Source: Mycobacteriales bacterium (GTDB lineage Bacteria > Actinomycetota > Actinomycetes > Mycobacteriales > JBJMIH01). From it: DNA of 64,000 nt. The position numbers were made by a program, and so were the translations under genes. The first letter of the stretch is position 1. Each line of letters begins with the position of its first letter. Below, piece by piece: positions 1 through 14,196 of the stretch. Under the pieces are notes generated by a model. The model was not told the origin of the DNA, did not search any database, and was given only the letters and a program-made list of their open reading frames with translations. The stretch is from NCBI GenBank assembly GCA_045806985.1, contig JBJMIH010000081.1:7669-71668 (forward strand). The letters are read 5' to 3'.

Positions 1-1165
1 CCGGCGGCGTGCACTCCACCGCGGCCAGCACCCCGGCCGGGCCACCGGTCCCGCCGGCCGGGGCGCGCCGGCAGCCGGGGTCGCCGACCAGGCCGGCCAG
101 CGAGCGTTCCGCGGCGGTGGGGAAGGCGGGGACACCGGGGTGGCGCGCGTGCCGGTCGCCGCCCGACGCCTCGAGCGTGAGCACCGTGGCCGCCACCAGC
201 ACGGCGACCGCGGCGGCGACGGTGGCGAGCCGGCGCCTCGGCGTGCCGGCCAGCCACCGCAGCGCCGGCCACGGCCCGGTCGTACCCGCGTGCCGGACCA
301 GCCAGGGCAGCCGCGGCAGCGGTGGCCGCGGCCGGCCGTACACCACCGCCTCCAGCTCCGCGACCAGGTCCGAGCAGGTGGGGTGGCGGTGGGCGGGGCG
401 CTTGGCGAGTGCCCGCGCGAACACCTGGTCGACCTGCCGGGGCAGGTCCGGGCGGAGGGTGGAGGCGCGGGGCGGCGGCCGCCGCAGGTGCCCGTCGTAC
501 ACCTCCACGGTGGTGGACGCCTCGAAGGGCGCGCGCCCGGTGAGGCAGTGGAAGATCACCTCGGCCAGGCCGTACACGTCCGCGCGGCGGTCGACGGCGC
601 CGCTGCGCTGCTGCTCGGGGGCGGCGTACAGCGGGGTGTGCGGGCCGACCTGCCGGGTCAGGTCCGGCGCCCGCAGGTCCTTCGCGCTACCGAAGTCGCA
701 CAGGTACGCCTGGCCGGTGCCGGCCTCGATCATGATGTTGGCCGGCTTGACGTCGCGGTGCACCAGGTGACCGCGGTGCGCGGCGTCGAGCGCGTCGGCG
801 ACCTGCCGGGCGATCTCCAGGGTCCGCGCGATGTCCAGCCGCCCCGTCGGCGACTCCGCCAGCAGCCCGCGCAGGTCGGTGCCCTTGACATAACGCATGG
901 CCAGGTAGAGGTGGCCCGCCGACTCGGCCGTCCGGTACGTCTCCACGATGTGCGGGTGTCGCAGCTCGCTGGCGATGCGGACTTCCTGCTGGAAGCGGGC
1001 GACCTGGACGGGGTCCGCGCCGGCGACGTCGAGCACCTTCAGCGCGACCAGGCGTCGCTGCCCGCCCACCTCCTCGGCGTAGTACACGTCTCTCGACAGC
1101 GCCCGGAGCAGCCGGTAACCCGGTATCGCGGGCCCGAGGATCGGCGGTTCCCGGGTGGTGTCCAC
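1..1165 (-). CDS. Membrane Ser/Thr (Hanks-type) protein kinase, 3' end outside the window
   Basis: Not in the ORF track. Manual translation from GTG at 1165: MDTTREPP..VALKVL..RFQQE..HRDVKPANIMI..LCDFG..YAAPEQ..DVYGL, then a hydrophobic helix (LATVAAAVAVLVAATVL) and a domain running off the window. Confidence 0.9.
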   Translation of the reverse strand, partial: MDTTREPPILGPAIPGYRLLRALSRDVYYAEEVGGQRRLVALKVLDVAGADPVQVARFQQEVRIASELRHPHIVETYRTAESAGHLYLAMRYVKGTDLRGLLAESPTGRLDIARTLEIARQVADALDAAHRGHLVHRDVKPANIMIEAGTGQAYLCDFGSAKDLRAPDLTRQVGPHTPLYAAPEQQRSGAVDRRADVYGLAEVIFHCLTGRAPFEASTTVEVYDGHLRRPPPRASTLRPDLPRQVDQVFARALAKRPAHRHPTCSDLVAELEAVVYGRPRPPLPRLPWLVRHAGTTGPWPALRWLAGTPRRRLATVAAAVAVLVAATVLTLEASGGDRHARHPGVPAFPTAAERSLAGLVGDPGCRRAPAGGTGGPAGVLAAVECTPP

Positions 1166-1236
1166 AGCGCATCCCCGTCAATGGCCAAGCGGCGGAGTAG
1201 CCGTCCTTCCTGCTGGAAGGCTACCCCGCCGCCCGG

Positions 1237-2121
1237 TCAGCCGCGGCCGCTGAGCACGTGCACCAGGCCCCGGTGGCCCGCCGACGGCGCGGCCCCGAAT
1301 ATCAGCGTCAGCATCGTGACCAGGACCAGCAGGTACCCGGTGTACGTGACGATCCGCCACAGCCAGCTCAGCAGCCGGCCCCACCACCCGCCGGGCGCCG
1401 GCCGGACGACCAGCCGCACGTGCTGGCGCGCCGTGGCGCCGTTGCCGTCGGTGACCGACACGGTGAAGTCGCTGGTACCGGAGCCGCGCGGGCTGCCGAC
1501 GAGGACTCCGTCCGCGGTCAGGGAGATGCCGGCCGGCAGCGATCCGCGCACCAACCGCCAGCGCAGCGGTGGCGTGCCCGGACTGGCGGAGAACGCGTAC
1601 CGGTAGGCCCGGCCCGCCGTCCCGGACCGCAGCAATGCCGTCGGGCTGAGCATCCGCGGCAGGGTCGGCCGGGCGGCCGCCAGTCCGACCTGCTGGATGC
1701 TCACCAGCAGGTCGCGGCGGTCGGTCCGGTGCTGGCCGTCCTGCACACCGACGGTGACCACCTGCTGCTCGACGTCGGCCGCGGTACCCCGCACCACCCC
1801 GGCCGGATCCAGCGACAGGCCCGCCGGCAGCGTGCCCTGGACCAGCCGCCAGCTCAGCGGGCCCTCGCCGTCGGCGGCCAGGGTGAGCTGGTAGGGCTGC
1901 CCGACCAGCGCCGACGGTGCCGAGACCGTGGTGATCCTGGGCGCGACGTCCGGGCGCCCGGTACTGGTGAACGCGCTGACCACGATCAGCAGCACCGCCA
2001 TGAACATCACCGTGGCGACCACGATCAGCAGCAGGTCCACGAACCTGAGCTCGACCGGCGTCTCCGCGGCGCCACCGGACCGGCGGCCGTACCGCCCGAA
2101 ACCCCCGGCACGCATCGTCAT
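1237..2121 (-). CDS. ExbD/TolR/MotB-like membrane protein with two putative Ig-like (He_PIG-type) domains and a C-terminal TM helix
   Basis: N-terminal TM with Asp (RFVDLLLIVVATVMF); two repeats of Y..L.A..G..PL.W.LV.G.LPAG(L/I)SL...GV..G; ATGA overlap with the upstream gene. Confidence 0.7.
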   Translation of the reverse strand: MTMRAGGFGRYGRRSGGAAETPVELRFVDLLLIVVATVMFMAVLLIVVSAFTSTGRPDVAPRITTVSAPSALVGQPYQLTLAADGEGPLSWRLVQGTLPAGLSLDPAGVVRGTAADVEQQVVTVGVQDGQHRTDRRDLLVSIQQVGLAAARPTLPRMLSPTALLRSGTAGRAYRYAFSASPGTPPLRWRLVRGSLPAGISLTADGVLVGSPRGSGTSDFTVSVTDGNGATARQHVRLVVRPAPGGWWGRLLSWLWRIVTYTGYLLVLVTMLTLIFGAAPSAGHRGLVHVLSGRG

Positions 2122-3104
2122 CGCACCGCCCGCCGGGTGACGACCATGTCGCGGTCCAGGCCGTCACGGATGTCGCCGAGCCGGCGGCTCATCTCGGCCA
2201 GCACGTCGAGCACCTCGCCGGCCCGCCGGTCGGCACCGGTCGCCTGGCCGGTCACCGTACGGCGCCAGGCCGCGACCTCCGTGGCCAGCCGGTCGATGTC
2301 GCCGTGGAGCTGGATCACCTGGCCGCCGGGTTCGGGTGGCATCCGCTCGGCGAGCTGGTCCAGCGCCCAGGCGTCCACCTCGACGGCGAACCGCTCCTCC
2401 CTGGCCCGGGTGATGCTGAGCAGCACGTGGCAGAGCACGCTGCACGCCAGCGCGAACAGGGTGATGCCGAACGCGTCCGCCAGCGGCGGGATCACCTTCT
2501 GCGCCAGGAAGTCGCGCAGGTCCGCGTAGGAGGCGGTGCGCGCGACCGCCGTCCCGACGCCACCGATCGAGTGCGACATCTCGGCGGCGGTACCCATGAA
2601 GCCGAGCGCGGGCAGCGCCCACACCAGCGCCCGCACCGGCCCGTACGGGTTCTCCTCGCGCGCCTCGTCCAGCGCGGACCTGGCCGAGAGCAGGAACTCG
2701 GCGATGCCGCGGTGGCCGGGCACCGTGTGCTGATCGAGGATGGCCAGCCGGGCGCGGTACCGCGAGCCGGCCATCTCCGGGCTGTCGAGGATCTCCGACA
2801 CCGCGACCGGCAGGCCGGCCGCCTCGCCGCCACCCAGCGCGGCGGCCCGTTCCCGCGGTGTCAGCCAGGCGTACCGCGTCAGCCTCCGCTCCCTGGCGAC
2901 CCGGCGATTGAACGAGTACAGGACCAGCAGCACCCAGATCGTGGTACCCAGCACCACCGCCGCGATCGCTCCGGCCGCCCCGCCGCGCCGCACGAACGCG
3001 CCCAGCACCGGCACCCAGCCCAGCCAGCCGAGGTTGGCCGCCAGCTCGGTCGACCCGACGCCGAACAGCCCAGCCCACCAGAACACCCTCGTCGAGGAGA
3101 CCAT
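2118..3104 (-). CDS. MotA/TolQ/ExbB proton-channel family protein
   Basis: LVWALPALGFMGT...LADAFGITLFAL TM pair typical of the family; GGAGGG RBS. Confidence 0.75.
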   Translation of the reverse strand: MVSSTRVFWWAGLFGVGSTELAANLGWLGWVPVLGAFVRRGGAAGAIAAVVLGTTIWVLLVLYSFNRRVARERRLTRYAWLTPRERAAALGGGEAAGLPVAVSEILDSPEMAGSRYRARLAILDQHTVPGHRGIAEFLLSARSALDEAREENPYGPVRALVWALPALGFMGTAAEMSHSIGGVGTAVARTASYADLRDFLAQKVIPPLADAFGITLFALACSVLCHVLLSITRAREERFAVEVDAWALDQLAERMPPEPGGQVIQLHGDIDRLATEVAAWRRTVTGQATGADRRAGEVLDVLAEMSRRLGDIRDGLDRDMVVTRRAVR

Positions 3105-3174
3105 CCACCCTCCAACCCGCGCACCGGACAGCCAGCACGAGGATTTTCGAGCCCCCGCCCCGGGACCCGTCCCC

Positions 3175-4578
3175 TCAGCGCCGGCAGAGCTGGAGGGAGG
3201 CGAGGAGGGTGGCCAGGGCCAGCAGGATCAGCACGAGGGTGGTGGTGCGGAAGGCGGTCGGGTAGTCGGTGGCGTGCAGGGTGGTGGCGAAGAGGGCGCC
3301 GACGGCGGTGACGCCGAGGGCGTTGGCGACCTGGGTCACGGTGAGGAGGACGCCGGAGCCGGCGCCTGCCTGGTCGCCGCCCACCCGCTCGAGGATGATC
3401 GCGATCAGCGGCGCGGCGACCATGCCCTGCCCGGCGCCGGCGAGCAGGAGGGCGGGGCCGAGCAGGGCGGGCTGGGCGTGCCGGCCGGCGTGGACGGCCA
3501 GCACGCCGACGATCAGCGCCAGGCCGGCGGCCATGATCAGGGCGCCGAGCGCCAGTACCCGGGCGCCGAGGCGGGGGACGAGCCGCTTGACGGTGACGGA
3601 GGTGGCGGCGAACCCGATCCCCAGCGGCAGGAAGGTGAGGCCGGAGGCGAGCGGCGACAGGCCGAGGCCGCCCTGGAGGTAGTACGCCAGCGTCAGGAAC
3701 AGGGCGGCATTGCCGCTGTAGAACAGCAGCACGGTGACCAGCCCGAGGGCGAACGGCCGCTGGCCGAACAGGCCGAGCGGTACGAGCGGGGCGCCGCCGC
3801 GGGCGGTCAGCCGGTGCTCGCGGGCGGCGAAGCCGGCCAGCAGGATCGGGCAGCCCAGGAGCAGCCAGTACGACCGCCGCTGCACCAGCGGCAGCATCAG
3901 CGCGATCATGGCGAGCGCCAGCAGCGCCATCCCGGTCCAGTCCAGGCCCTGGTACCCGCCGCGCCTGTCGCCGTGGGACTCCTCGACGGTGGGCAGCGCG
4001 CAGCCCACCGCGAGCAGTCCGACCGGCACGTTGACCAGGAACACGCTGCGCCATCCCAGTCCGGCGACGTCGGCGTCGATGAGCAGGCCGCCGACCACCT
4101 GCCCGGCGATCGAGGCGAGCCCGATGGTGGCCCCGTAGAACCCGAGTGCCCTGGTCCGCTCCGGCTCGGGGAAGGCGACCTGGATGACGGACAGCACCTG
4201 CGGCAGCATCACGGCGGCGGCGAGGCCCTGCGCGACCCGGAAGGCGATGAGCACCGCCGGGTCGGGAGCGAGCGCGCACGCCAGGGAGGCCGCGGTGAAC
4301 GCGCCGGTCCCGGCCAGGAACGCCCGCTTGCGGCCGACGGCGTCGCCGATCCGGCCGCCGGTGACGAGGGCGATGGCGTAGGCGAGCACGTACCCGGCGA
4401 GCACGAACTGCAACTGGCCGAAGCTGGCTCCCAGCCCGTGCTGGATGGACGGTGCGGCGACGTTGACGATGAACACGTCGAGGATGCCCATGAAGGTGGC
4501 CGTCAGCACCACGGCCAGTGCCACCCATTGGCGTGGCCGCACCCGGTCGTCGATCTCGATCTCCTGCGCGGTCCTCAT
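3175..4578 (-). CDS. MFS transporter, DHA2 (14-TM) drug-efflux type
   Basis: LDVFIVNVAAPSI, GGRIGDAVGRKR, WRSVFLVNVPVG motifs. Confidence 0.92.
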   Translation of the reverse strand: MRTAQEIEIDDRVRPRQWVALAVVLTATFMGILDVFIVNVAAPSIQHGLGASFGQLQFVLAGYVLAYAIALVTGGRIGDAVGRKRAFLAGTGAFTAASLACALAPDPAVLIAFRVAQGLAAAVMLPQVLSVIQVAFPEPERTRALGFYGATIGLASIAGQVVGGLLIDADVAGLGWRSVFLVNVPVGLLAVGCALPTVEESHGDRRGGYQGLDWTGMALLALAMIALMLPLVQRRSYWLLLGCPILLAGFAAREHRLTARGGAPLVPLGLFGQRPFALGLVTVLLFYSGNAALFLTLAYYLQGGLGLSPLASGLTFLPLGIGFAATSVTVKRLVPRLGARVLALGALIMAAGLALIVGVLAVHAGRHAQPALLGPALLLAGAGQGMVAAPLIAIILERVGGDQAGAGSGVLLTVTQVANALGVTAVGALFATTLHATDYPTAFRTTTLVLILLALATLLASLQLCRR

Positions 4579-4662
4579 ACCGCCAGCGTGTGCACGGGTC
4601 GGGCGAGCGGTCCAAGACGAACCGGACGGCGCTGTGATAAGCGCTGGTTATCATGGGATGGC

Positions 4663-5565
4663 ATGGACCTGCGCCGGCTGCGGTACTTCCAGGCCGTCGC
4701 CTGCCAGCTCCACTTCGGACGGGCCGCCGAGGCCCTGCACATCGCCCAGCCGGCGCTCAGCCAGCAGATCAGGGCGCTGGAACGCGAGCTCGGCGTGGAA
4801 CTGCTCGACCGTGACCGCCGCCATGTCAGGCTCACCCCGGCCGGGCGCGCGCTGCTGGAAGAGGCCAACGAGCTGCTCGCCCGCGCCGACCGGGCCGTCG
4901 AGAAGACCCGGCTCGCCGCCCGCGGCCTGGCCGGCCAGCTGCGGGTCAGTTACACCCGCTCCTCACCGGGCGGGCCGGCCGCCGACCTGATCGCCGCCTA
5001 CCGGGACCGCTACCCGGACGTGGCCGTCGAGCTGATGGTCGGCTACCACCGCCGGCACGTCGAGCAGCTCCTGGACGGCGAGCTGGACGCCGCCTTCGTC
5101 CGGCCGCCGCTGACCGAGGAGCGGATCGCGATCCGCACGGTGGCACACGAGCCGTTGATGGTCGCCCTGCCCGGCACGCACCCGCTGGCCCGCCGCCGGG
5201 CGATCCGGCCGGAGCAGCTCCACGACGAACCGGTGGTGTCCTGGCCCCGCGGGAACGGACCCGGCCTGTACGACACCATCCAGCTCAAGGTCTGGGGCGC
5301 GCATCCGGTACGGATCGTCGCCGAGGAACCGGACGAGGAGCACATGCTCCATGCCGTCGCGGCCGGGGCCGGCGTCGCCGTCTGCATCGCCGGCAAGCTG
5401 TCCACGCTCCGGATTCCCGGCCTCACGGTCCGCCGCTTCGCCGCGCCGCCACCCACCGTCCCGCTCGCCCTCGCCTGGCGGCCCGACCACCTCTCCGAAC
5501 CCCTGCGGCACCTGCTCGACCTCGCCGCCGAACGCTGCCCACCGGAGGAGGAGAGCACGGCGTGA
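4663..5565 (+). CDS. LysR family regulator, divergent from the MFS gene
   Basis: MDLRRLRYF..LHFGRAAEALHIAQPALSQQIRALERELG HTH; start at ATG 4663, not 2740. Confidence 0.93.
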   Translation: MDLRRLRYFQAVACQLHFGRAAEALHIAQPALSQQIRALERELGVELLDRDRRHVRLTPAGRALLEEANELLARADRAVEKTRLAARGLAGQLRVSYTRSSPGGPAADLIAAYRDRYPDVAVELMVGYHRRHVEQLLDGELDAAFVRPPLTEERIAIRTVAHEPLMVALPGTHPLARRRAIRPEQLHDEPVVSWPRGNGPGLYDTIQLKVWGAHPVRIVAEEPDEEHMLHAVAAGAGVAVCIAGKLSTLRIPGLTVRRFAAPPPTVPLALAWRPDHLSEPLRHLLDLAAERCPPEEESTA

Positions 5566-7190: not shown

Positions 7191-9623
7191 TCAGCGGATG
7201 GTTACCGTCGTGTGCAGCGGGAGCGTGCCGGACGAGGAGCCGACCCGGACGGTGCGGCTGCCGGTGCCGAGCACCCAGGCGTGCGCGGCGGCGTCCCAGT
7301 GCTGGAGCTGCCGCTCGGCGACGAAGATGTCCACGGTGCGGGACCGGCCCGGGGCGAGGTGGACCTTGCGGTAGCCGGCGAGGGCCAGCACGGGCTGCTG
7401 GGCGCCGCCCGCGTTCGGGCTCGGGCCGAGGTACACCTGCGGCACCTCGTCGCCGGCACGCCGGCCGGTGTTGGTGAGCGTGACGCGGACCGACAGCCCG
7501 TGCCGGGTCCGGGTCACGTGCAGGCCGCGGTACGCGAACGTGGTGTAGGACAGGCCGTAGCCGAAGGGGAACAGCGTCGGCTGGTTCCGCGCGTCGTACC
7601 ACCGGTAGCCGACGTCGACGCCCTCGGAGTAGTCCTCCTCGAGGTTCACGCCCGGGTAGCGGGCCGGGTCGCCGCTGACCATGGTGTGCGCGTCGTCGAG
7701 CGGGAAGGTCTGGCTGAGCCGGCCGCCTGGCGACGCGTCGCCGAACAGCAGGCGCGCGGTGGCCCGGCCGCCCTGCTGGCCGGGGTAGTACATGTCCAGC
7801 ACGGCGCGGACCCGGGACAGCCACGGCATCGTCACCGCGGAACCGGTGTTGAGGACGACCACGACGTTCGGGTTGGCCGCGGCCACCGCCTCGATCAGCT
7901 GGTCCTGGCGGTACGGCAGGGCGAGCGTGGTCCGGTCGGCGCCCTCGGTGCCCTCGTCGTAGGCGAAGACGACGGCGGTACGGGCCGAGCGGGCGGCGGC
8001 GACCGCGGCGTCGAGGTCCGCCCGCGCCGCCTCCGGCGTCACCCAGGTGAGCCTGACCTGCAACGGGCCGGTGAGGAAGGCCGGGATGCCGAGCACGTCG
8101 ACGCCGAGCGAGTGGGTGCCGGCGGTGAGGTGCACGCTGGCCCGGACGTGGGTCAGGTCGTTGGACAGCGCGAAGCCGGTGGCGACCTGCGCGCCGTCCA
8201 GCGTGAGCGTGGCGATGCCCTGGGCCGCCTGGAGGTCGATCAGGTAGTCGCCGGTGGTGGCCACGGTGAGGGTACGGGTGGTGGAGAACGACTGGCCGTT
8301 GGGCAGGGCGCGGTCGCCGGTGAGATCGATCGGCCCGCCGGACAGCGCGGACGCCGGCACGAGCACGCCGATCGTGTCGATGCCCGGCGCGTACGAGACC
8401 GCGGCGCCGGTGCCGGCCCGCCGGGTGATCTCGTCCAGCGGGGTGGTCACGCTGGTCGGCGTGACCTGCGAGCTCCCGCCACCGCCGATGACGGGGTACC
8501 GGGCCGGCGTCCCGATCAGCGCGAGGCTGCGGGCCGCCGCACCGGTCAGCGGGAGCGCGCCGCCGGTGTCGCGGAGCAGGACCGCACCGTTCTCGGCGAC
8601 GTCCCGCGCGACCCGGTCGTCGGCCGCCGCGTCGAACACCGGCCGGGCCGGCAGGTGGCAGCGGGGTACCGGACCGGCGGGCGAGGCGCAGGCCAGCAGG
8701 CCGAACCTGGCCATCTGCACGAGGATGCGGCGCACCGCCGCGTCCAGCGCGGACCGGGGGATCGTGCCCTGCGCGATCGCGGCCTTCAGCGCGTCGCCGA
8801 GGTACGTGCCGGACGGCATCTCCTGGTCGAGGCCGGCGAGGACCGCGTCGGTGCTGTGCGTCGCGCCCCAGTCCGACATCACCCAGCCGCCGAAGCCCCA
8901 GTCGCGCTTGAGCACGCCGTTGAGGAGCGGAGCGTTGCCGCAGCCGGGCTCGCCGTTGATCTTGTTGTACGAGCACATCACCGCGCCGGTCCCGGCCCGC
9001 ACCGCGGCCTCGAACCCGGCCAGCTCGACCTCGCGCTCGGCCTGCTCGCCGACCCGGACGTCGACCGACATGCGGTCCCGCTCCTGGTTGTTCTCGGCGT
9101 AGTGCTTGACCGTCGCGATGAGACCCTGGCTCTGGATGCCGCCGACCTCCCACGCCACGGTGTTGCCGGAGACCAGCGGGTCCTCGCTGAACGTCTCGAA
9201 GTTCCGGCCGCCGTACGGCACCCGGATGGTGTTCACCATCGGCGACAGCAGCACGTCAAGGCCGAGCGCGCGGCCGTCCCGCCCGATCACCTGCCCGTAC
9301 CGGCGGGCCAGCGCCGGGTCGAAGGTGGACGCGAGCGCCACCGGCGCCGGCATCGCGGTACTCGGGTGCGTGACGCGCACGCCCGCCGGCCCGTCGGTGA
9401 GCCGCAGCGGCGGGATGCCCAGCCGGGCCACGCCCGGGATGTACCCCGCCTGGCCCAGCGACGCGGGGTCGGGGGCCCCGTGGACGAACGACACCTCCTC
9501 GTCCAGCGTCATTGCCCCCAGCAGGGCATCGACACCCGGCCGGCCGGGCCGGTCCGCCACGGCCGGAGCCGCGGTCGACAGGCAGGTCGCGACCGCGAGT
9601 ACCACCACGCCGGAACGCCTCAT
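7191..9623 (-). CDS. Secreted GH3 beta-glucosidase with an insert domain and C-terminal Fn3-like domain
   Basis: TDGPAGVR, GGRNFETFSEDP, KHY, VMSDWGA, FPFGYGLSYT, EVPQVY. Confidence 0.93.
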   Translation of the reverse strand: MRRSGVVVLAVATCLSTAAPAVADRPGRPGVDALLGAMTLDEEVSFVHGAPDPASLGQAGYIPGVARLGIPPLRLTDGPAGVRVTHPSTAMPAPVALASTFDPALARRYGQVIGRDGRALGLDVLLSPMVNTIRVPYGGRNFETFSEDPLVSGNTVAWEVGGIQSQGLIATVKHYAENNQERDRMSVDVRVGEQAEREVELAGFEAAVRAGTGAVMCSYNKINGEPGCGNAPLLNGVLKRDWGFGGWVMSDWGATHSTDAVLAGLDQEMPSGTYLGDALKAAIAQGTIPRSALDAAVRRILVQMARFGLLACASPAGPVPRCHLPARPVFDAAADDRVARDVAENGAVLLRDTGGALPLTGAAARSLALIGTPARYPVIGGGGSSQVTPTSVTTPLDEITRRAGTGAAVSYAPGIDTIGVLVPASALSGGPIDLTGDRALPNGQSFSTTRTLTVATTGDYLIDLQAAQGIATLTLDGAQVATGFALSNDLTHVRASVHLTAGTHSLGVDVLGIPAFLTGPLQVRLTWVTPEAARADLDAAVAAARSARTAVVFAYDEGTEGADRTTLALPYRQDQLIEAVAAANPNVVVVLNTGSAVTMPWLSRVRAVLDMYYPGQQGGRATARLLFGDASPGGRLSQTFPLDDAHTMVSGDPARYPGVNLEEDYSEGVDVGYRWYDARNQPTLFPFGYGLSYTTFAYRGLHVTRTRHGLSVRVTLTNTGRRAGDEVPQVYLGPSPNAGGAQQPVLALAGYRKVHLAPGRSRTVDIFVAERQLQHWDAAAHAWVLGTGSRTVRVGSSSGTLPLHTTVTIR

Positions 9624-9802
9624 CGCGCGCCCTCCCTTGCCGCCGCCGGGGCCTTACACGTGAAAGTACTCCAATCCGGGCGAATGGACAGGACCACCAG
9701 TTCGACCGACGGTGCACCCACCCCCCGAGGGGGTTGCCGCATTTGCGCGCGCGCCCGACCCAGCCCGTTCCCGCGCCCCCGGCGCGCGCAAACTGCGGAG
9801 GT

Positions 9803-10456
9803 GGGGAGCGAGGGCGTGGGGGCGAGGGGGGCGAGGGGTGGGGGCGAGGGGGGAGCGGAGGCCGGGAACGCGCAGGCCGGGAACGCGGAGGCGCGGAGGC
9901 GGGAGCGCGGAGGCCGGGAACGCGGAGGCCGGGAACGCGGAGCCGCGGAGGCGGGCAGCGCGGAGGTCCGGGCAGCGCGGAGGTCCGGGCAGCGCGGAGG
10001 TCCGGGCAGCGCGGAGGTCCGGGAACGCGGACGTGGGGAACGCGGACGTGGGGAACGCGGACGTGGGGAACGCGGACGTGGGGAACGCGGACGTGGGGAA
10101 CGCGGACGTGGGGAACGCGGACGTGGGGAACGCGGAGGCGGGCAGCAGCGCGGAGCCGCGGAGGCGGGCGCGCGGAGGCGGAGGTCGAGGCGGGAGCGCG
10201 GAGGTGGGGAGCGCGGAGGCGGGCAGCGCGGAGGCGGGAGCGCGGAGGCGGGAGCGCGGAGGTCGAGGCGGGGCGCGCGGACGTGGGGAACGCGGAGGCC
10301 GGGAACGCGGAGGCGGAGGTCGAGGTGGGGAACGCGGAGGCGGGGCGCGCGGAGGCGGGGGCGAGGGGGCAGGGCGCGCGGAGGCGGGGGCGAGGGGGCA
10401 GGGCGCGCGGAGGCGGGGGCGAGGGGGCAGGGCGCGCGGAGGCGGGGGCGAGGGGC
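9803..10456 (+). repeat. Compound G-rich tandem-repeat tract
   Basis: GGGCAGCGCGGAGGTCC x4 (9953-10020), GGGAACGCGGACGTG x7 (10021-10125), GGGCGCGCGGAGGCGGGGGCGAGGGGGCA x3 plus a partial copy (10343-10455), degenerate copies between. Confidence 0.9.
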
Positions 10457-10479
10457 GTTGGTGGTAGGGGGTGAGGGGG

Positions 10480-11532
10480 TCAGGTGGCTGTGCAGGTGGG
10501 GGTCGGGGTTTCGTTGGCGGTGGTCCAGGTGGCGATGAAGCCGAACTGGGTGCTGGCGGCCGGGGCGAGGGCGCCGTTGTAGCCGACGTTGCGGGCGGTG
10601 ACCGTGGCGCCGGTACTGGTGACCGTCGCGCTCCAGGACTGGGTGACGGTCTGGCCGTTGGCGAACTGCCAGGTGACCGTCCAGCCGGTGATGGCGCTGC
10701 TGCCGGCGGTGACCGTCACCGACCCCTGGAAGCCGCCGGTCCACTGGTTGGCCACGCTGTAGGTGGCGGTGCAGCCGCCGCCGGGCGGGGGCGGGTTGGT
10801 GCCGCCGGGGGTACCGATGCTGCCGGGCACCGTCAGCAGGGCGTTGTACCAGGTCGCGGCCATCTTGTCGTACCCGGTCGCGTTCGGGTGGACGCCGTCG
10901 GCGAGGTCGGCGGCGGTCAGCGCGGAGTGCATGTCCACCAGGTGCACGTGCCTGCCGGCGCTCGCCTTGCTCTGGACGATGCCCGGGATCGCGGCGTTGT
11001 AGGTGCGTACGGCCGCCTCCGCGCTGGCCGAGGCGAGCGGGATGATCGTGGCGACGAACACCTCGGCGTCCGGCGCGGTCGCGGTGATGTGGTCGATCAG
11101 CGCGGACAGCCGGGCCGGCGCGTTCGCCAGGTCGTCGTTCTGGATCACGTCGTTGGTGCCGATGTGCAGCAGCACCGTGTGCGGGGTGAAGGTGTGCAGC
11201 CAGTTGACAATGTTGGCGTCGATCTGGTCGATCCGCCAGCCGGAGTGCCCCTCGTGGTCGTGGTCGCCGAGGCTGGCCGGCCCGTTGGAGAGCGACCCGA
11301 CGAAGTCCACCCGGTACCCGGCGTTGACGAAGCGTTGCCACAGCCCGATCCGGTACCCGCCGGGCACGGTGAGCCCGTCGGTGATCGAGTCACCGAGCGG
11401 CATCACCCGCACCCCGCCGTTGGACTCGGCGCGGGCGGCGCCGGCGCCGGCCGCGACGGTGGCGGCGGCCGCCAGCACCACGGCGACGACCGCGACCACG
11501 GCGCCGGCCCATCGTGGCAGGACTGTGCGCAT
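10480..11532 (-). CDS. Secreted SGNH hydrolase (CE3-like esterase) with C-terminal CBM2
   Basis: PLGDSIT, HEGHSG, HIGTND, DGVHP; Pro linker; CTATYSVANQWTGGFQG CBM2. Confidence 0.92.
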   Translation of the reverse strand: MRTVLPRWAGAVVAVVAVVLAAAATVAAGAGAARAESNGGVRVMPLGDSITDGLTVPGGYRIGLWQRFVNAGYRVDFVGSLSNGPASLGDHDHEGHSGWRIDQIDANIVNWLHTFTPHTVLLHIGTNDVIQNDDLANAPARLSALIDHITATAPDAEVFVATIIPLASASAEAAVRTYNAAIPGIVQSKASAGRHVHLVDMHSALTAADLADGVHPNATGYDKMAATWYNALLTVPGSIGTPGGTNPPPPGGGCTATYSVANQWTGGFQGSVTVTAGSSAITGWTVTWQFANGQTVTQSWSATVTSTGATVTARNVGYNGALAPAASTQFGFIATWTTANETPTPTCTAT

Positions 11533-11547: not shown

Positions 11548-13134
11548 TTACGCGGGGTCGAGGGCCAGGGCGTCGAAGACGAAGCTGGGGCTGAGGAAGC
11601 CCGTGCCGCCGCTGCCGCTGATGACCGAGATCGAGAGGCTGTTCGTGCCGGCGTGCAGGGCGCTGGCCGGGATCGTGAACGTGTAGGTGTGGTTGACGCC
11701 CCGCCAGGTGCCGCGGGTGATGCTGCGGGAGTTCAGGTCGACGGGGGCCGGCGAGTCGCTGGACGGCGAGCTCCAGCCGCCGATGGAGACCGCCGGCCGG
11801 CCGCCCGCGAACGCGATCGTCGTCGCGATCCGCAGCCGGGCGCCCTGCGCCGGGACGCTGCCCAGCGGGAAGGCCACCACCAGCGGCGAGTTGCCGTCCT
11901 TGAACATCGCCATCGGCACGGCCGACGCCCCGGACGAGGTGCTGACCGTGCCCGGGTTCCAGTTCGCCATCCGCACGTCGGAGGGGTGCATGGTCTCGAT
12001 CCGGTTGGCGTTCAGGAAGCCGGCGGGCGTGCCGTCGAAGGTGCCGAGCTGGAACAGCGCGCCGCTGGCCGGCACGTTGCCGGACAGCGCGGTGCTGGCG
12101 GTCTGTCCGGCCGCGACGGTGACGGTCGCCGTCGACCCGACCGCCAGCTCGCCGGCGTACAGGGTGGCGGTGTAGGTGCCGGGCCGGACCTTCGCGACGG
12201 TGAACCGGCCACTCTGGACGGAAGCCCAGTACTGCCCGTTGGGGCCGGCGAGCGCGGCGGTGACCGGCAGGCCATTCCACGACCCGGTCGCCGTGCCGGT
12301 GACCGTGCCGCGCTGCGCGGGTGACGGCAGTCCGGGGAGGTAGGCGGACAGGAAGTCCATGTTCACCGCGGCCGGGGCCCCGCCGTCGGTCACCGCCATC
12401 GCGTACGGCCCGTGCAGGCCGAGGCGCAGCGACTCGGTCTGGGCGTGGCCGCTGAACATGTACTGGGTGATGTTGGTCGCCGCGCCGGCGTTGTTGACCT
12501 CGATGTCCCGGAAGAACGGGCCGCCGGAGGTCATCTCCTGCGTCCCCGGGATCATGAACACGCCGTGCCCGTTCCCGCTGGCGCCGAACGGCTTCTGCGC
12601 GATCAGCCGCTCCGAGCTGTAGAACTTCGACGCCGTGGTGCCGTCGGCGAAGCCGAAGACGTCGGAGCCCTCCACGGTCCGGGTGCTGCCGGCGGTGCGG
12701 GCGGCGACCGGCGAGTTCGGCAGCAGCGCGCTGCTGACCCGGCTGATGAACCGGGCCTCGCCGGGGTTGAGCGCCTGGTTGATCCTGGTCGCCAGGTAGA
12801 TCGTGTTGTCACCCTTGCGGGCGAAGTAGTACTGCGTGACGCCGATCCCGGTGTTGGCGGCGGTGACCAGCAGTGAATTGCCGCCGTCGAACGTCTGGCT
12901 GGTGACGGTCGCCGAGCTCCAGCCCGACTCGAACTGCCCGGCGGCCTGGCCGGACGCGGCCAGCTCGACGCCGCGGTGCTTCAGCGACGTCATGTTGCCG
13001 TTCGTGCCGTCGATGGTGAACACCAGCCCGGAGCCGGTGTCGAAGGTGACGGACGTCGCGGCGGTGGCCCCGGTGCCCGGGTACAGCACGCCGGCGGCGA
13101 GCACGGCTCCGCAGAGCAACCGGGCCATCGTCAT
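11548..13134 (-). CDS. Secreted rhamnogalacturonan lyase, PL4 (RhgB-like)
   Basis: GEARFISR, SKFYS, SGGPFFRDI, YMFSGHAQTE, GLHGPY, PGTYTATLY, MHPSDVRM, SRSITRGTWRG. Confidence 0.85.
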   Translation of the reverse strand: MTMARLLCGAVLAAGVLYPGTGATAATSVTFDTGSGLVFTIDGTNGNMTSLKHRGVELAASGQAAGQFESGWSSATVTSQTFDGGNSLLVTAANTGIGVTQYYFARKGDNTIYLATRINQALNPGEARFISRVSSALLPNSPVAARTAGSTRTVEGSDVFGFADGTTASKFYSSERLIAQKPFGASGNGHGVFMIPGTQEMTSGGPFFRDIEVNNAGAATNITQYMFSGHAQTESLRLGLHGPYAMAVTDGGAPAAVNMDFLSAYLPGLPSPAQRGTVTGTATGSWNGLPVTAALAGPNGQYWASVQSGRFTVAKVRPGTYTATLYAGELAVGSTATVTVAAGQTASTALSGNVPASGALFQLGTFDGTPAGFLNANRIETMHPSDVRMANWNPGTVSTSSGASAVPMAMFKDGNSPLVVAFPLGSVPAQGARLRIATTIAFAGGRPAVSIGGWSSPSSDSPAPVDLNSRSITRGTWRGVNHTYTFTIPASALHAGTNSLSISVISGSGGTGFLSPSFVFDALALDPA

Positions 13135-13147
13135 GGGAGCGCTCCCA
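13134..13147. promoter_or_regulatory. CebR/CelR-type operator overlapping the RBS and start of the PL4 gene
   Basis: Perfect palindrome TGGGAGCGCTCCCA. Confidence 0.85.
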
Positions 13148-13191
13148 CCGGTAGAGAGGTGCTTGGTCCGTTTCGTACGCTTTGCGACCTT

Positions 13192-13203
13192 GATACCGGT
13201 AAC
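13192..13203. promoter_or_regulatory. Possible LacI-family operator
   Basis: Near-palindrome GATACCGGTAAC in the divergent intergenic region. Confidence 0.35.
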
Positions 13204-13241
13204 GCCACCCGCCGTCAAGGACCATGCCCGCCGTACGATGA

Positions 13242-14069
13242 GTGATCGACATCCTCCGCCTCGCCACCGTCGCGGCCGCCGCCACGGCGGTCGCGCTGGC
13301 CGGCGCGGGCTGCGGCGGCTCCCGGCACCACGTGCCGTCCGCCCGCGCCAGCTCCGCCCCGGCGGGCACGCCGGCGGAGCGGGCCAGGGCAGCGGCCGAC
13401 CTGCGGGTCCTGCGCGCCGCCGCCGGGCGGGACGCCTGCGCGGTCACCTGCCAGGGCGGGGCGGCGCTGCCGGAGGACGCCGCCACCCAGGCCTTCGCCC
13501 GCGACACCGCCTGCGCCGCCGGGCTGGCGCAGAACCTGCTGCTTGCCCTGCTGGACAAGGAGCACCAGCAGTACCCGGCGCAGACGCAGAAGGAGATGGT
13601 CGCGGCCGGCATCGACAAGTCGCTTGGTGTCGCCTCGATGAAGTACGGCACCGCCACCGACCTGATCCGCCTGCACCACCGCGCCGTCCCGGAGGCCGCC
13701 GACCGGACCGCGCTGGTCGCCCGGCTCGTCGACGATCCGCGGCTGGACATCCAGCTGGCCGCCGACCGGCTCGCCGACGCCAGGCACGCCGGCCTCGGCG
13801 ACCGGGGCGCCTTCGTCGCCTACGCGTTCTCCCCCGGCAACTGGCCGGCGCTGCGCGCCGCCGGGGACAGCACCGCGGCCTTCAGCGACGACCACACGCC
13901 GGGCCGCGAGTCGGCCCGCCAGCGCGCCGCCGACTACGACTACCTGACCGGCGTGCTGGCCGCCGCCGACGACTGGCTGGCACTCCCCGCCGGAGTCCGT
14001 GCCGCCACACAGGGACACCGGCGCCTCACCCTTCCCTACGCCGCGCCCCGCCGCCCCGACTGCGCCTGA
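13242..14069 (+). CDS. Putative lipoprotein with a possible lysozyme/lytic-transglycosylase-like domain
   Basis: Signal peptide ending LAGAGC; LLLALLDKE, SLGVASMK, DDPRLDIQLAADRL and AFVAY follow SLT motif order. Confidence 0.5.
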   Translation: MIDILRLATVAAAATAVALAGAGCGGSRHHVPSARASSAPAGTPAERARAAADLRVLRAAAGRDACAVTCQGGAALPEDAATQAFARDTACAAGLAQNLLLALLDKEHQQYPAQTQKEMVAAGIDKSLGVASMKYGTATDLIRLHHRAVPEAADRTALVARLVDDPRLDIQLAADRLADARHAGLGDRGAFVAYAFSPGNWPALRAAGDSTAAFSDDHTPGRESARQRAADYDYLTGVLAAADDWLALPAGVRAATQGHRRLTLPYAAPRRPDCA

Positions 14070-14097
14070 GCGTTCCGAGCACGCGGGAGCCGGGCCT

Positions 14098-14162
14098 TTC
14101 AGTGCCGCGTCAGCCGCGCTCCAGGGCGGCTCCAGGACCGCTCCAGGACCACCCGTCAGAGT
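14098..14162 (+). promoter_or_regulatory. 11-bp-phased direct repeats (SARP/OmpR-type site) upstream of lanKC
   Basis: GCTCCAGG at 14118, 14129, 14140; CAG cores also at 14100 and 14111; -10-like CAGAGT at 14157. Confidence 0.6.
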
Positions 14163-14196
14163 CCGTTGCCGTAGCGGACCGACGGAGGGTGGCACG

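What the first reader, a model, noticed from the sequence alone, without database searches (positions are those of the whole stretch)
1..3104. MotA/ExbB-like channel, ExbD-like Ig-domain partner and membrane Ser/Thr kinase: candidate ion-motor signalling or defence system in a monoderm
Seen: three co-oriented genes. The first carries the MotA/TolQ/ExbB TM signature (WALPALGFMGT..AFGITLFAL). The second is coupled to it by ATGA and starts with a TM containing an Asp (FVDLLLIVV). It then has two Ig-like repeats and a second TM instead of an OmpA-like or ExbD domain. A kinase with its own TM follows 71 bp later. Known: MotAB, ExbBD, TolQR and ZorAB are 5:2 ion-driven motors whose B subunit has an essential TM Asp, and Zorya uses such a motor against phage. 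Inference: with no TonB, Tol or flagellar genes nearby, this motor may sense envelope or contact events through the Ig domains and signal through the kinase. I know of no described system with this architecture. Further genes may lie left of the window.
Basis: partly seen in the sequence, partly recalled or inferred. Interest (0 to 1): 0.82.

Follow-up and report, generated by a model that had tools for sequence, protein, structure and literature searches.

The report
ExbB-like motor pair beside receptor kinase
Two overlapping genes encode what looks like a small ion-driven membrane motor of an undescribed family that elsewhere travels with swappable kinase, TIR or protease partners, but here its usual partner is missing and an unrelated receptor kinase sits in that position.

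Summary
On the minus strand lie A (2118-3104), B (1237-2121, ATGA overlap) and a Ser/Thr kinase (2-1165, cut by the window edge; 652 aa in full).

A has an ExbB/TolQ fold (Z 14). Alone it is below the Pfam cut-off, but 31 of 44 relatives hit PF01618.

B has an N-terminal TM with an Asp invariant in 56 of 56 relatives, two He_PIG Ig domains and a second TM.

Across 104 related loci, 64 belong to the strong-A subfamily. B follows A in 52 of 53 judgeable loci. An FGE-sulfatase protein lies within 5 kb in 29 of 32. Its N-terminal head is a kinase (18), TIR or CHAT, or FGE is fused to B. PADLOC has no model for A or B, and my paper searches found no description.

The window is an exception:
- It has no FGE partner.
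- Its kinase is an ordinary PknH-like receptor kinase, not the kinase-FGE lineage.
- The kinase forms an autonomous pair with an FHA-HTH gene, also found without A-B in another genome.
- A strong hairpin separates it from B.

So the motor pair and its family are well supported, while motor-to-kinase coupling in this genome is about even odds. A defence role is inferred, not shown.

The parts
2118..3104 (-). Gene A: 328-aa ExbB/TolQ/MotA-fold membrane protein, the putative pentameric channel/rotor subunit
   Evidence: ORF. PF01618 E 0.019 alone; 31 of 44 relatives hit PF01618. AF2 pLDDT 87.1. ExbB/TolQ Z 13-14 over about 205 residues.
2409..2642 (-). A residues about 155-232: TM2-loop-TM3 core holding the family's invariant residues (W162, P165, G168, F169, G171, T172, A173, F212, T215, A218, L219)
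   Evidence: Invariant columns in alignments A1 and A5. This is the region matched by PF01618.
2121..2342 (-). A residues about 255-328: cytoplasmic helical, coiled-coil-like C-terminal tail with lower model confidence
   Evidence: AF2 helices 266-288 and 295-316, pLDDT 50-75. The family profile hits designed coiled coils.
1237..2121 (-). Gene B: 294-aa bitopic partner, start overlapping A's stop (ATGA)
   Evidence: A B-like gene follows A in 52 of 53 judgeable loci.
1966..2058 (-). B residues 22-52: invariant P-x-E-x-R-F-x-D motif and TM1. The Asp29 codon is 2035-2037.
   Evidence: P, R, F and D are identical in 56 of 56 B-like sequences. Invariant in alignments A2 and A4.
1405..1938 (-). B residues about 62-239: two He_PIG Ig-like domains, predicted extracytoplasmic
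   Evidence: PF05345 E 5e-20 with two stretches, Big_9 E 2.8e-7. They are flanked by two TM segments.
1288..1368 (-). B residues about 252-278: second (C-terminal) TM, followed by a short basic tail
   Evidence: Hydropathy. Conserved in all 24 clade-I B proteins aligned.
1185..1236 (-). Long G+C-rich hairpin in the 71-bp B-kinase gap: terminator-like or processing element
   Evidence: MFE -50.8 kcal/mol for 86 nt, z -4.7, 0 of 200 shuffles as stable. The equivalent stretch in 18 canonical loci folds at -23.5 to -37.7. The consensus terminator scan does not list it because it has no T-run.
2..1165 (-). Receptor Ser/Thr kinase, first 388 of 652 aa. Kinase domain about 326-1123; TM about 173-229. 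The double Cys-rich ectodomain continues left of the window.
   Evidence: Pkinase E 1e-37. Full sequence. TM. Ectodomain AF2 pLDDT 90.1; repeats resemble TiME (Z 9.2), DcrB (Z 8.7) and the PknH sensor (Z 7.7).

Best explanation
Genes A and B encode a two-protein, ion-conducting membrane complex of the ExbB-ExbD / TolQ-TolR / MotAB / ZorAB kind. By analogy, a ring of A subunits surrounds the Asp-bearing N-terminal helix of B. Protonation and deprotonation of that Asp by ion flow would drive conformational or rotary work. B displays two Ig domains outside the cell and returns through a second TM.

The pair belongs to a distinct, apparently undescribed family. Its usual third component is a cytoplasmic protein built as [kinase | TIR | CHAT | unassigned head] followed by an FGE-sulfatase domain. 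In some lineages the FGE domain is instead fused to B. In actinomycetes the set also includes FHA-domain proteins: BTAD-FHA regulators with the domain order I recall for EmbR, or trypsin-FHA with Trypco1.

The swappable heads and swappable B ectodomains (Ig, PAN, FGE) are the pattern expected of an envelope-surveillance or conflict system that turns a surface or membrane event into an enzymatic response, as Zorya does.

In this genome the canonical kinase-FGE gene is absent. Its position is taken by an unrelated PknH-like receptor kinase, which together with the next gene (FHA plus a C-terminal HTH-like region) is a self-standing signalling pair. Either that pair has been recruited as the motor's output, giving a transcriptional response (my estimate about 45%), or A-B now works alone or with unlinked partners.

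Shown: gene structure, fold, invariant Asp, and co-occurrence statistics. Inferred: 5:2 stoichiometry, ion drive, direction of signalling, and a defence role.
For: A:
- AF2 model pLDDT 87.1.
- Foldseek's top hits are all ExbB/TolQ at probability 1.00.
- On VIA-align the top 18 entries are ExbB/TolQ at Z 12.9-14.0, covering about 200-220 residues of targets 215-236 long. ZorA follows at Z 10.5-11.5, then PomA/MotA at Z 7.3-9.0.
- PF01618 is hit by 31 of 44 family members, best E 1.6e-9.

B:
- The motif P-x-[ED]-x-R-F-x-D, with Asp in 56 of 56 sequences, starts the TM.
- A and B overlap by ATGA.

Family, based on 64 loci with a strong A match:
- B-like gene downstream in 52 of 53 loci with at least 400 bp of sequence.
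- FGE-sulfatase within 5 kb in 29 of 32 loci with at least 3.5 kb downstream.
- A kinase in 18 of those 32, every one a kinase-FGE fusion, with FHA in the same 18.
- B-FGE fusion in 6.
- Control: 40 loci with only a weak MotA-like match gave B-like 1, FGE 1, kinase 1.

Partner heads by Pfam: Pkinase; TIR_2 (L023, L038, L054, L062, and L069 with SEFIR); CHAT (L020, L040). None has a TM. L080, from the weak-A set, has a CAP12/PCTIR-type TIR.

B ectodomains: He_PIG, PAN or FGE.

Other points:
- An FGE-sulfatase domain is depicted as a sensor domain of defence-associated STAND proteins (figure legend, PMC12803255).
- The window's A nests inside the actinomycete kinase-FGE clade (SH-aLRT 94, quick tree). 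That implies descent from a kinase-FGE-type locus.
- A kinase still occupies the gene slot after B, although only 15 kinases were found in the 6.9-Mb genome.
- The window's A and B keep every family-invariant residue.
Against: - No sequence profile links A's core or B's TM to solved ExbB/ExbD/TolR chains.
- A alone is below Pfam's cut-off.
- The pentamer-plus-B model could not be run, so stoichiometry and the pore position of the Asp are untested.
- For helical proteins the aligner's own note says Z below about 13 can arise from common arrangements. Z 14 is only just above that.

Against coupling to the window's kinase:
- It groups with the genome's ordinary kinases, away from the kinase-FGE clade (SH-aLRT 100).
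- A 46%-identical kinase plus a 44%-identical FHA-HTH gene occur together without A or B within about 8 kb in another genome of the same order.
- The B-kinase gap holds a hairpin of -50.8 kcal/mol, against -23.5 to -37.7 at 18 canonical junctions. Of those, 14 have gaps of -4 to 39 bp.
- The genome's only strong FGE-sulfatase gene is DinB_2+FGE next to a GCS2 gene on another contig. I read that as EgtB-like by recall.

Against a defence role:
- No PADLOC model matches A or B.
- Only 8 of 75 flanking ORFs in 12 loci hit any PADLOC model at E 1e-5, most of them generic (RT, methyltransferase, HEAT, radical-SAM-like).
- Neighbours in the window and in the Streptomyces loci are housekeeping genes.
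- There is no match in phage records.
Confidence: 0.55

Rival explanations
1. Chance neighbours. A-B is an orphan motor pair that lost its kinase-FGE partner. The receptor kinase and the FHA-HTH gene are an unrelated signalling pair that merely lies next to it. There is no functional link between motor and kinase in this genome.
For: The kinase is not of the kinase-FGE lineage. The same kinase plus FHA-HTH pair occurs without A-B in G169. A terminator-like hairpin unique to this junction sits between B and the kinase. A-B without any FGE partner also occurs in 3 of 32 other loci: L012, L019 and L022.
Against: The kinase occupies the gene position, on the same strand, where 18 of 18 kinase-bearing related loci carry a kinase. 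The genome has only 15 kinases, so the prior for a chance kinase in that slot is well under 1% per gene. An FHA gene follows, as FHA genes accompany all 18 canonical loci. The finding was, however, picked because a kinase was there, which weakens this argument.
Confidence: 0.4
2. The family is a physiological envelope or developmental signalling device, not immunity. The motor reports membrane energisation, cell-wall state or cell contact to a Ser/Thr kinase, and FHA-bearing transcription factors change gene expression. TIR and CHAT versions in other phyla would be derived.
For: In actinomycetes the set consists of kinase, FHA, BTAD-FHA (Trans_reg_C+BTAD+FHA) or Crp-type regulators. Flanks are housekeeping genes and rarely defence genes. 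A precedent exists for an FGE-like protein acting with a membrane kinase and an FHA protein in membrane-damage sensing: TagR and PpkA in PMC13713981 (passages), with Fha1 from recall.
Against: TIR, SEFIR-TIR and CHAT heads match defence-type models: bSEFIR E 9e-71, and weak TIR-model hits for L023. The same applies to the CAP12/PCTIR-type TIR (PDC-S35, PycTIR) in the more distant L080. Trypsin plus Trypco1 pairs and a PycTM gene sit in several loci. Distribution is patchy: 0 of 40 same-order relatives have A. Head-swapping on a constant FGE domain is the pattern described for conflict systems (PMC7159879, passages).
Confidence: 0.3
3. Reverse wiring. The cytoplasmic [head]-FGE protein is the sensor, with FGE as ligand-binding domain. 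A-B is the effector, an ion channel that is opened to depolarise the cell, rather than the sensor.
For: An FGE-sulfatase domain is depicted as a sensor domain in defence-associated STAND proteins (figure legend, PMC12803255). The partners have no TM and are cytoplasmic. A-B has an invariant ion-pathway-type Asp.
Against: The heads (TIR, CHAT, kinase) are themselves effector or signalling enzymes, so a second effector is not needed. B's variable ectodomains (Ig, PAN, FGE) look like sensing surfaces outside the cell. In the window there is no FGE protein at all.
Confidence: 0.15
4. A vestigial, non-functional remnant of a Ton or Tol system in a monoderm.
For: A 2025 survey states that incomplete Ton systems occur in Actinobacteria and are 'likely non-functional' (PMC12204202, passage). 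A's closest folds are ExbB and TolQ.
Against: B has no ExbD/TolR periplasmic domain but has Ig domains and a second TM. Both genes are intact with all family-invariant residues. The pair is conserved with specific non-Ton partners across phyla. No TonB, TolA or Pal genes were seen next to it.
Confidence: 0.03

Closest known systems
ExbB-ExbD and TolQ-TolR (Ton and Tol inner-membrane motors)
   Same: This is the closest fold for A (Z 12.9-14.0 over nearly the whole ExbB/TolQ chain). A is followed by a small partner gene whose N-terminal TM carries an invariant Asp near its cytoplasmic end. The genes are translationally coupled.
   Different: No sequence-profile match to solved chains. B has two Ig domains and a second TM in place of the ExbD/TolR periplasmic domain. 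A has an extra N-terminal helix and a 75-residue helical tail. No TonB/TolA or outer-membrane partners are present. The partners are FGE-sulfatase proteins instead.
Zorya (ZorAB with ZorC/D or ZorE), the anti-phage motor system
   Same: A MotA-superfamily protein and an Asp-TM partner are coupled to cytoplasmic effector proteins. A has a cytoplasmic C-terminal helical tail. ZorA is the second-best fold match (Z 10.5-11.5). A few relatives hit ZorA models weakly (E 1e-4 to 1e-5).
   Different: The window's A and B hit no Zorya model. The tail is about 75 residues, not the hundreds recalled for ZorA. B has no peptidoglycan-binding domain. No ZorC, ZorD or ZorE equivalents are present. The partners are [kinase/TIR/CHAT]-FGE-sulfatase.
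TagQRST-PpkA-Fha1 threonine-phosphorylation pathway of the Pseudomonas H1-T6SS
   Same: It combines an FGE-sulfatase-superfamily protein (TagR) with a membrane Ser/Thr kinase in sensing membrane damage (PMC13713981, passages). The FHA-protein step (Fha1) is recalled.
   Different: It has no MotA/ExbB-like motor. TagR is periplasmic and separate from the kinase. Its output is T6SS assembly. The window itself lacks any FGE protein in the locus.
PknH-EmbR pair of mycobacteria (receptor kinase plus FHA transcription factor)
   Same: The window's kinase has a kinase domain, one TM and an ectodomain whose repeats resemble the PknH sensor (Z 7.7, 118 residues, rmsd 3.4). It is followed by an FHA-domain protein with a C-terminal HTH-like region. 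Canonical relatives carry Trans_reg_C+BTAD+FHA genes upstream of A; I recall that as the EmbR domain order. The PknH-EmbR pairing was seen only in a search listing and abstracts.
   Different: The ectodomain is a tandem of two four-Cys repeats with no Pfam family. The Z-scores are middling. The window's FHA protein lacks the Trans_reg_C and BTAD domains. No motor is known beside PknH (recalled).
FGS-domain effectors and trypsin-Trypco pairs of the NTP-dependent conflict systems (Kaur, Burroughs, Iyer and Aravind 2020)
   Same: The syntax is the same: variable enzymatic heads always N-terminal to a constant FGE-sulfatase ('FGS') domain. Trypsin plus Trypco1 neighbours also occur (PMC7159879, passages; loci).
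   Different: Those systems are built around vWA-MoxR, STAND or GTPase cores. The main text of that paper has no occurrence of MotA, ExbB or TolQ. Its source-data supplements could not be seen.

Membership tests
MotA/TolQ/ExbB proton channel family (PF01618) | Profile match above Pfam's gathering score | tested here: inconclusive
   The window's A scores 15.2 bits against a cut-off of 22.9, E 0.019. Of 44 family members, 31 match at E 0.1 or better, best 1.6e-9.
MotA/TolQ/ExbB proton channel family (PF01618) | ExbB/TolQ/MotA fold (TM1, cytoplasmic helices, TM2-TM3 hairpin) | tested here: met
   AF2 pLDDT 87.1. Foldseek's top hits are ExbB/TolQ at probability 1.00, best E 1.9e-3. VIA-align gives Z 12.9-14.0 for 18 ExbB/TolQ entries, with about 200-220 residues aligned at rmsd 3.5-8.3.
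MotA/TolQ/ExbB proton channel family (PF01618) | Adjacent gene for a partner with a single TM bearing an essential acidic residue | tested here: met
   ATGA overlap. The partner is present in 52 of 53 loci. The Asp is present in 56 of 56 sequences.
MotA/TolQ/ExbB proton channel family (PF01618) | A5:B2 assembly with the Asp helices inside the A ring | not testable with these tools
MotA/TolQ/ExbB proton channel family (PF01618) | Conserved polar residues in TM2 and TM3 lining the ion path | tested here: inconclusive
   T172 and T215 are invariant in the core alignment. Their equivalence to the ExbB/TolQ threonines is recalled, not aligned, because the profile finds no solved ExbB.
ExbD/TolR/MotB-type B subunit | ExbD/TolR or OmpA-like periplasmic domain | tested here: not met
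   Pfam finds He_PIG and Big_9 only at E up to 1.
ExbD/TolR/MotB-type B subunit | Detectable sequence similarity of the TM segment to solved ExbD/TolR/MotB chains | tested here: inconclusive
   The profile of 36 N-terminal segments found no such chain at E up to 10. The segment is short.
Zorya | ZorA and ZorB profile matches | tested here: not met
   PADLOC gives no Zor model for the window's A or B at E up to 1. Three relatives hit ZorA at 1e-4 to 1e-5.
Zorya | ZorC/ZorD or ZorE effector genes next to the motor | tested here: not met
   No PADLOC Zor hits among the window's neighbours or the related loci scanned.
A-B-FGE triad (family delineated here, unnamed) | FGE-sulfatase-domain protein within 5 kb of A-B | tested here: not met
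   None is found in C81:1-10800. The genome's only strong FGE gene is DinB_2+FGE beside GCS2 on contig C146. The genome is 83% complete.
A-B-FGE triad (family delineated here, unnamed) | A and B orthologous to the triad's A and B | tested here: met
   A scores E 2e-102 against the family HMM and B's N-terminus scores 7e-29. A nests within the kinase-FGE clade.
PknH-like receptor Ser/Thr kinase with FHA partner | Active-type kinase domain, one TM and a PknH-like ectodomain | tested here: inconclusive
   Pkinase E 1e-37. HRD and DFG motifs are visible in the sequence. TM at residues 313-331. The ectodomain versus the PknH sensor 4esq gives Z 7.7, TiME Z 9.2 and DcrB Z 8.7, all middling values.
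PknH-like receptor Ser/Thr kinase with FHA partner | Conserved adjacent FHA-domain gene | tested here: met
   FHA scores 22.7 bits against a cut-off of 20.7. The ortholog (44% identity, E 6e-56) lies next to the orthologous kinase in G169. It is absent next to the kinase in G193.

The most novel reading that the evidence does not exclude
A-B plus [kinase | TIR | CHAT]-FGE-sulfatase triads are a second family of ion-motor-coupled immune or surveillance systems, independent of Zorya, spread across Actinomycetota, Pseudomonadota and Chlorobiota. B's swappable ectodomain reads the cell surface. The motor's cytoplasmic face switches on an FGE-tethered enzyme. In this genome the motor has been rewired onto a PknH-like receptor kinase and an FHA-HTH regulator, so that a motor-sensed envelope event is answered by transcription.
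Probability: 0.3. Interest if true: 0.85.

Novelty: new variant of a known kind. Interest (0 to 1): 0.68.

Why it matters
Ion-driven 5:2 motors were long seen as devices for flagella and for outer-membrane work in diderms. Zorya showed that one can serve immunity.

The family found here would be a second, differently wired case. It combines an ExbB-like motor, swappable surface domains on the B subunit, and a cytoplasmic partner that swaps kinase, TIR and caspase-like heads on a constant FGE-sulfatase domain. It occurs in monoderm actinomycetes as well as diderms.

If it is real, it gives a tractable way to ask how a membrane motor passes a signal to a soluble enzyme. It also suggests a role for the many kinase-FGE fusions and FHA regulators of actinomycetes.

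The window's own copy is a natural rewiring experiment: the same motor with a different kinase.

Tried and rejected
- **PDB profile searches.** With A's full alignment the search returned only coiled-coil designs matching the tail. With the TM2-TM3 core it returned nothing relevant. With B's N-terminus it returned nothing relevant.
- **A5B2 or A5B1 modelling.** I dropped it.
- **The one complex job.** I used it on B (full length) against the kinase TM plus ectodomain. It returned no verdict, so it is evidence neither way.
- **RNA runs.** No RNA holder was listed for window 1-3300, so co-transcription could not be examined.
- **PADLOC.** No model matches A, B, the FHA protein or the 169-aa lipoprotein-like gene.
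- **Defence-island test.** Only 8 of 75 flanking ORFs from 12 loci hit a PADLOC model at E 1e-5. Two extra TIR genes in L023 and a methyltransferase in L040 were the only suggestive ones. L012 and L022 were called but left out of that scan.
- **Phages and plasmids.** No match in phage records. Plasmid records gave 3 partial, distant matches.
- **Same-order relatives.** 0 of 40 have A.
- **Consensus promoter/terminator scan.** 0 sites in window 1-4800, although folding shows a strong hairpin.
- **Foldseek on the kinase ectodomain.** Only low-TM matches, 0.2 or below for the top hits. The wider VIA search gave the TiME, DcrB and PknH matches.
- **A hidden FGE partner elsewhere in the genome.** Rejected: the only strong match is DinB_2+FGE beside a GCS2 gene. 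I read it as ergothioneine-type by recall.
- **Window kinase as a kinase-FGE that lost its FGE.** Rejected by the kinase tree (quick tree, SH-aLRT only, the careful search did not finish).
- **Paper searches that found no description.** FGE-sulfatase+MotA+kinase gave one paper, whose 'MotA' hits were an author name. ExbB+formylglycine gave 3 unrelated titles, seen as listing only. MotA+ExbD+'TIR domain'+'conflict systems' gave 0. Zorya+sulfatase gave 0. FGE-sulfatase+Pkinase gave 2, neither mentioning MotA in what I read.
- **Supplements.** They are closed, so the source data of PMC7159879 may list neighbourhoods I could not see.

Full report
**1. What is in the sequence**

The three genes are real and lie on the minus strand.
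- A is 2118-3104 (328 aa).
- B is 1237-2121 (294 aa).
- A Ser/Thr kinase starts at 1165 and runs off the left edge of the window.

The window is G000:C81:7669-71668. With the left flank (L001) the kinase is 652 aa.

The ATGA overlap of A's stop with B's start is confirmed. So is the 71-bp gap to the kinase's GTG. G+C is about 74%.

Upstream of A, on the same strand, is an MFS transporter. Downstream of the kinase, on the same strand, the order is:
- an FHA-domain protein;
- a 169-aa protein with a lipoprotein-like signal;
- an amidohydrolase.

**2. Protein A**

Alone, A matches PF01618 (MotA/TolQ/ExbB) only below threshold: 15.2 bits against 22.9.

A full scan of 1.84 billion representatives found 770 relatives at E 0.001 or better, but only 29 at 1e-30 or better. 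Of 44 aligned relatives, 31 hit PF01618, best E 1.6e-9.

The AF2 model is confident (pLDDT 87.1).
- Foldseek's best matches are all ExbB or TolQ at probability 1.00, though none reaches E 0.001.
- On a second alignment the 18 best entries are ExbB/TolQ at Z 12.9-14.0, covering nearly the whole target.
- ZorA follows at Z 10.5-11.5, and PomA/MotA at Z 7.3-9.0.

Sequence profiles of the family do not find solved ExbB chains. This is therefore a distant branch of the superfamily, closest in shape to ExbB/TolQ.

The invariant residues cluster in TM2 and TM3: W162, P165, G168, F169, G171, T172, A173, F212, T215, A218 and L219. A ends in a helical tail of about 75 residues with lower model confidence.

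**3. Protein B**

B has, in order:
- a basic N-terminus;
- a TM that opens with P-x-E-x-R-F-x-D;
- two He_PIG Ig domains (E 5e-20);
- a second TM;
- a short basic tail.

In 56 B-like sequences from related loci the P, R, F and D of the motif are identical in all 56.

No profile similarity to solved ExbD/TolR/MotB chains could be shown, and there is no ExbD or OmpA-like domain. B is therefore an analogue in position and chemistry. Homology is unproven.

**4. The family and its partners**

Pattern scans gave 24 loci from species genomes and 80 from metagenomes. I built local HMMs for A, B's N-terminus, FGE-sulfatase, the kinase domain and FHA.

With those, 64 loci carry a strong A match (E below 1e-40). 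Among them:
- B follows A in 52 of the 53 loci with at least 400 bp downstream.
- An FGE-sulfatase domain lies within 5 kb in 29 of the 32 loci with at least 3.5 kb downstream.
- A kinase is present in 18 of those 32, always as a kinase-FGE fusion. FHA genes occur in the same 18.
- FGE is fused to B itself in 6.
- The three loci without FGE are L012, L019 and L022.

As a control, the 40 loci with only weak MotA-like matches gave B-like 1, FGE 1 and kinase 1.

Pfam shows the head on the FGE protein to be one of the following:
- Pkinase;
- TIR_2 (L023, L038, L054, L062), or SEFIR/TIR (L069);
- CHAT (L020, L040);
- unassigned.

A more distant locus, L080, has a CAP12/PCTIR-type TIR-FGE.

These partners have no TM, so they are predicted to be cytoplasmic. 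B's ectodomain is He_PIG, PAN or FGE.

Actinomycete loci add further genes:
- Trans_reg_C+BTAD+FHA or other FHA proteins just upstream of A;
- DUF5753-HTH or Crp-type regulators;
- trypsin with Trypco1 in several loci;
- a PycTM gene in one.

PADLOC has no model for A or B. The TIR heads match defence-type TIR models, for example bSEFIR at E 9e-71.

**5. Is it in print?**

- The 2020 paper that defined FGS-domain effectors and Trypco1 has no occurrence of MotA, ExbB or TolQ in its main text (passages). Its supplements could not be seen.
- Searches combining ExbB or MotA or Zorya with FGE, formylglycine, sulfatase or TIR found nothing relevant.
- A kinase atlas preprint lists a kinase-FGE architecture but never mentions MotA.
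- A 2025 survey notes incomplete Ton systems in Actinobacteria as 'likely non-functional'.
- A 2026 preprint depicts FGE-sulfatase as a sensor domain of defence-associated STAND proteins (figure legend).

I therefore found no description of this triad, within the limits of those searches.

**6. Why the window's copy is atypical**

- There is no FGE gene in the locus. The genome's only strong FGE match is DinB_2+FGE beside a GCS2 gene on another contig. The genome is 83% complete.
- In a quick tree the 18 kinase-FGE kinases form one clade (SH-aLRT 100). The window's kinase sits among the genome's 15 ordinary kinases, nearest to one at 41% identity.
- The window's A nests inside the actinomycete kinase-FGE clade (SH-aLRT 94). 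The ancestral locus therefore probably had a kinase-FGE gene.
- The kinase's ectodomain is a tandem of two four-Cys repeats with no Pfam family. It is modelled at pLDDT 90.1. Each repeat resembles TiME (Z 9.2), DcrB (Z 8.7) and the PknH sensor domain (Z 7.7), all middling scores.
- Fifty-one proteins share this ectodomain. In 33 it follows a kinase, in 11 an Hsp70-like ATPase, in 2 a caspase, and 5 have no Pfam domain.
- Among 400 other genomes of the order, 2 have the ectodomain. Neither has A or B within about 8-9 kb. In one (G169) the kinase, 46% identical, is followed by an FHA protein 44% identical to the window's (E 6e-56). The kinase plus FHA-HTH is thus an autonomous pair.
- The 71-bp gap after B folds into a long hairpin: -50.8 kcal/mol, z -4.7, 0 of 200 shuffles as stable. 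The same stretch at the 18 canonical junctions gives -23.5 to -37.7, and 14 of the 18 have gaps of -4 to 39 bp.

**7. Weighing**

For coupling:
- A kinase on the same strand occupies the very slot that holds a kinase in all 18 kinase-bearing relatives, in a genome with only 15 kinases.
- An FHA gene follows it.

Against coupling:
- The kinase has a different lineage.
- The pair is autonomous elsewhere.
- The hairpin separates it from B.
- The finding was chosen because a kinase was there.

I put functional coupling at about 45%.

The A-B motor reading is much firmer, at about 85% for a B-in-A ion-conducting complex. The 5:2 stoichiometry could not be modelled. The one complex job, B against the kinase ectodomain, gave no verdict.

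A defence or conflict role for the family is inferred from head-swapping and TIR/CHAT content. It is weakened by mostly housekeeping flanks: 8 of 75 flanking ORFs hit PADLOC models, mostly generic ones. There is also no presence in phage records. I put it near 50%, with a physiological envelope-signalling role as the main alternative.

**8. Verdict**

- The lasting result is the delineation of an apparently undescribed ExbB-like motor family with FGE-sulfatase partners.
- The window holds a rewired or orphaned member of that family.

Noticed in passing
window 1185-1236 (minus strand): A long G+C-rich hairpin lies between B and the kinase (-50.8 kcal/mol for 86 nt, z -4.7). It has no T-run, so the consensus terminator scan misses it.
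   Followed up: partly
left of the window: G000:C81:6878-7801 (L001), kinase residues 345-652: A tandem four-Cys repeat ectodomain with no Pfam family, confidently modelled. In other actinomycetes the same module follows an Hsp70-like ATPase (11 proteins) or a caspase (2 proteins) instead of a kinase. It looks like a shared sensor with swappable cytoplasmic heads.
   Followed up: partly
left of the window: G000:C81:5563-6648 and 5029-5538 (L001): An FHA protein with a C-terminal HTH-like region lacking a Pfam match, conserved next to the orthologous kinase in another genome. It is followed by a 169-aa protein with a lipoprotein-like signal and no family match.
   Followed up: partly
L018:11459-11908; L011, L017 and L018 upstream genes: A PycTM (Pycsar effector) gene sits directly after the kinase-FGE gene in one Nonomuraea locus. 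Crp-type cyclic-nucleotide-binding regulators lie upstream of the FHA gene in three loci. This hints at a cyclic-nucleotide link.
   Followed up: no
L115 (Anabaena cylindrica plasmid pANACY.03, NC_019773.1 about 12765-14165): A more distant MotA/TolQ/ExbB family gene (466 aa) lies directly after type III-B CRISPR cmr4 and cmr6 genes and two hypothetical genes.
   Followed up: no
L074:5266-9749: A distant MotA-like gene is followed by a He_PIG protein and then an FHA-Pkinase fusion. This is a looser echo of the motor, Ig, kinase and FHA theme outside the strong subfamily.
   Followed up: no
L012 and L022: Two of the three A-B loci without an FGE partner have SpoIIE-type (PP2C) Ser/Thr phosphatase genes within a few kb.
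   Followed up: no
window about 9500-10500: A stretch with G+C 0.79 and GC skew about 0.3. The plus-strand ORF listing there shows runs of RGE/GRGE repeats, so it may be a tandem repeat.
   Followed up: no
G000:C81:120-617 (L001): An IS481-type transposase HTH fragment sits at the very start of the contig, about 6 kb beyond the kinase.
   Followed up: no
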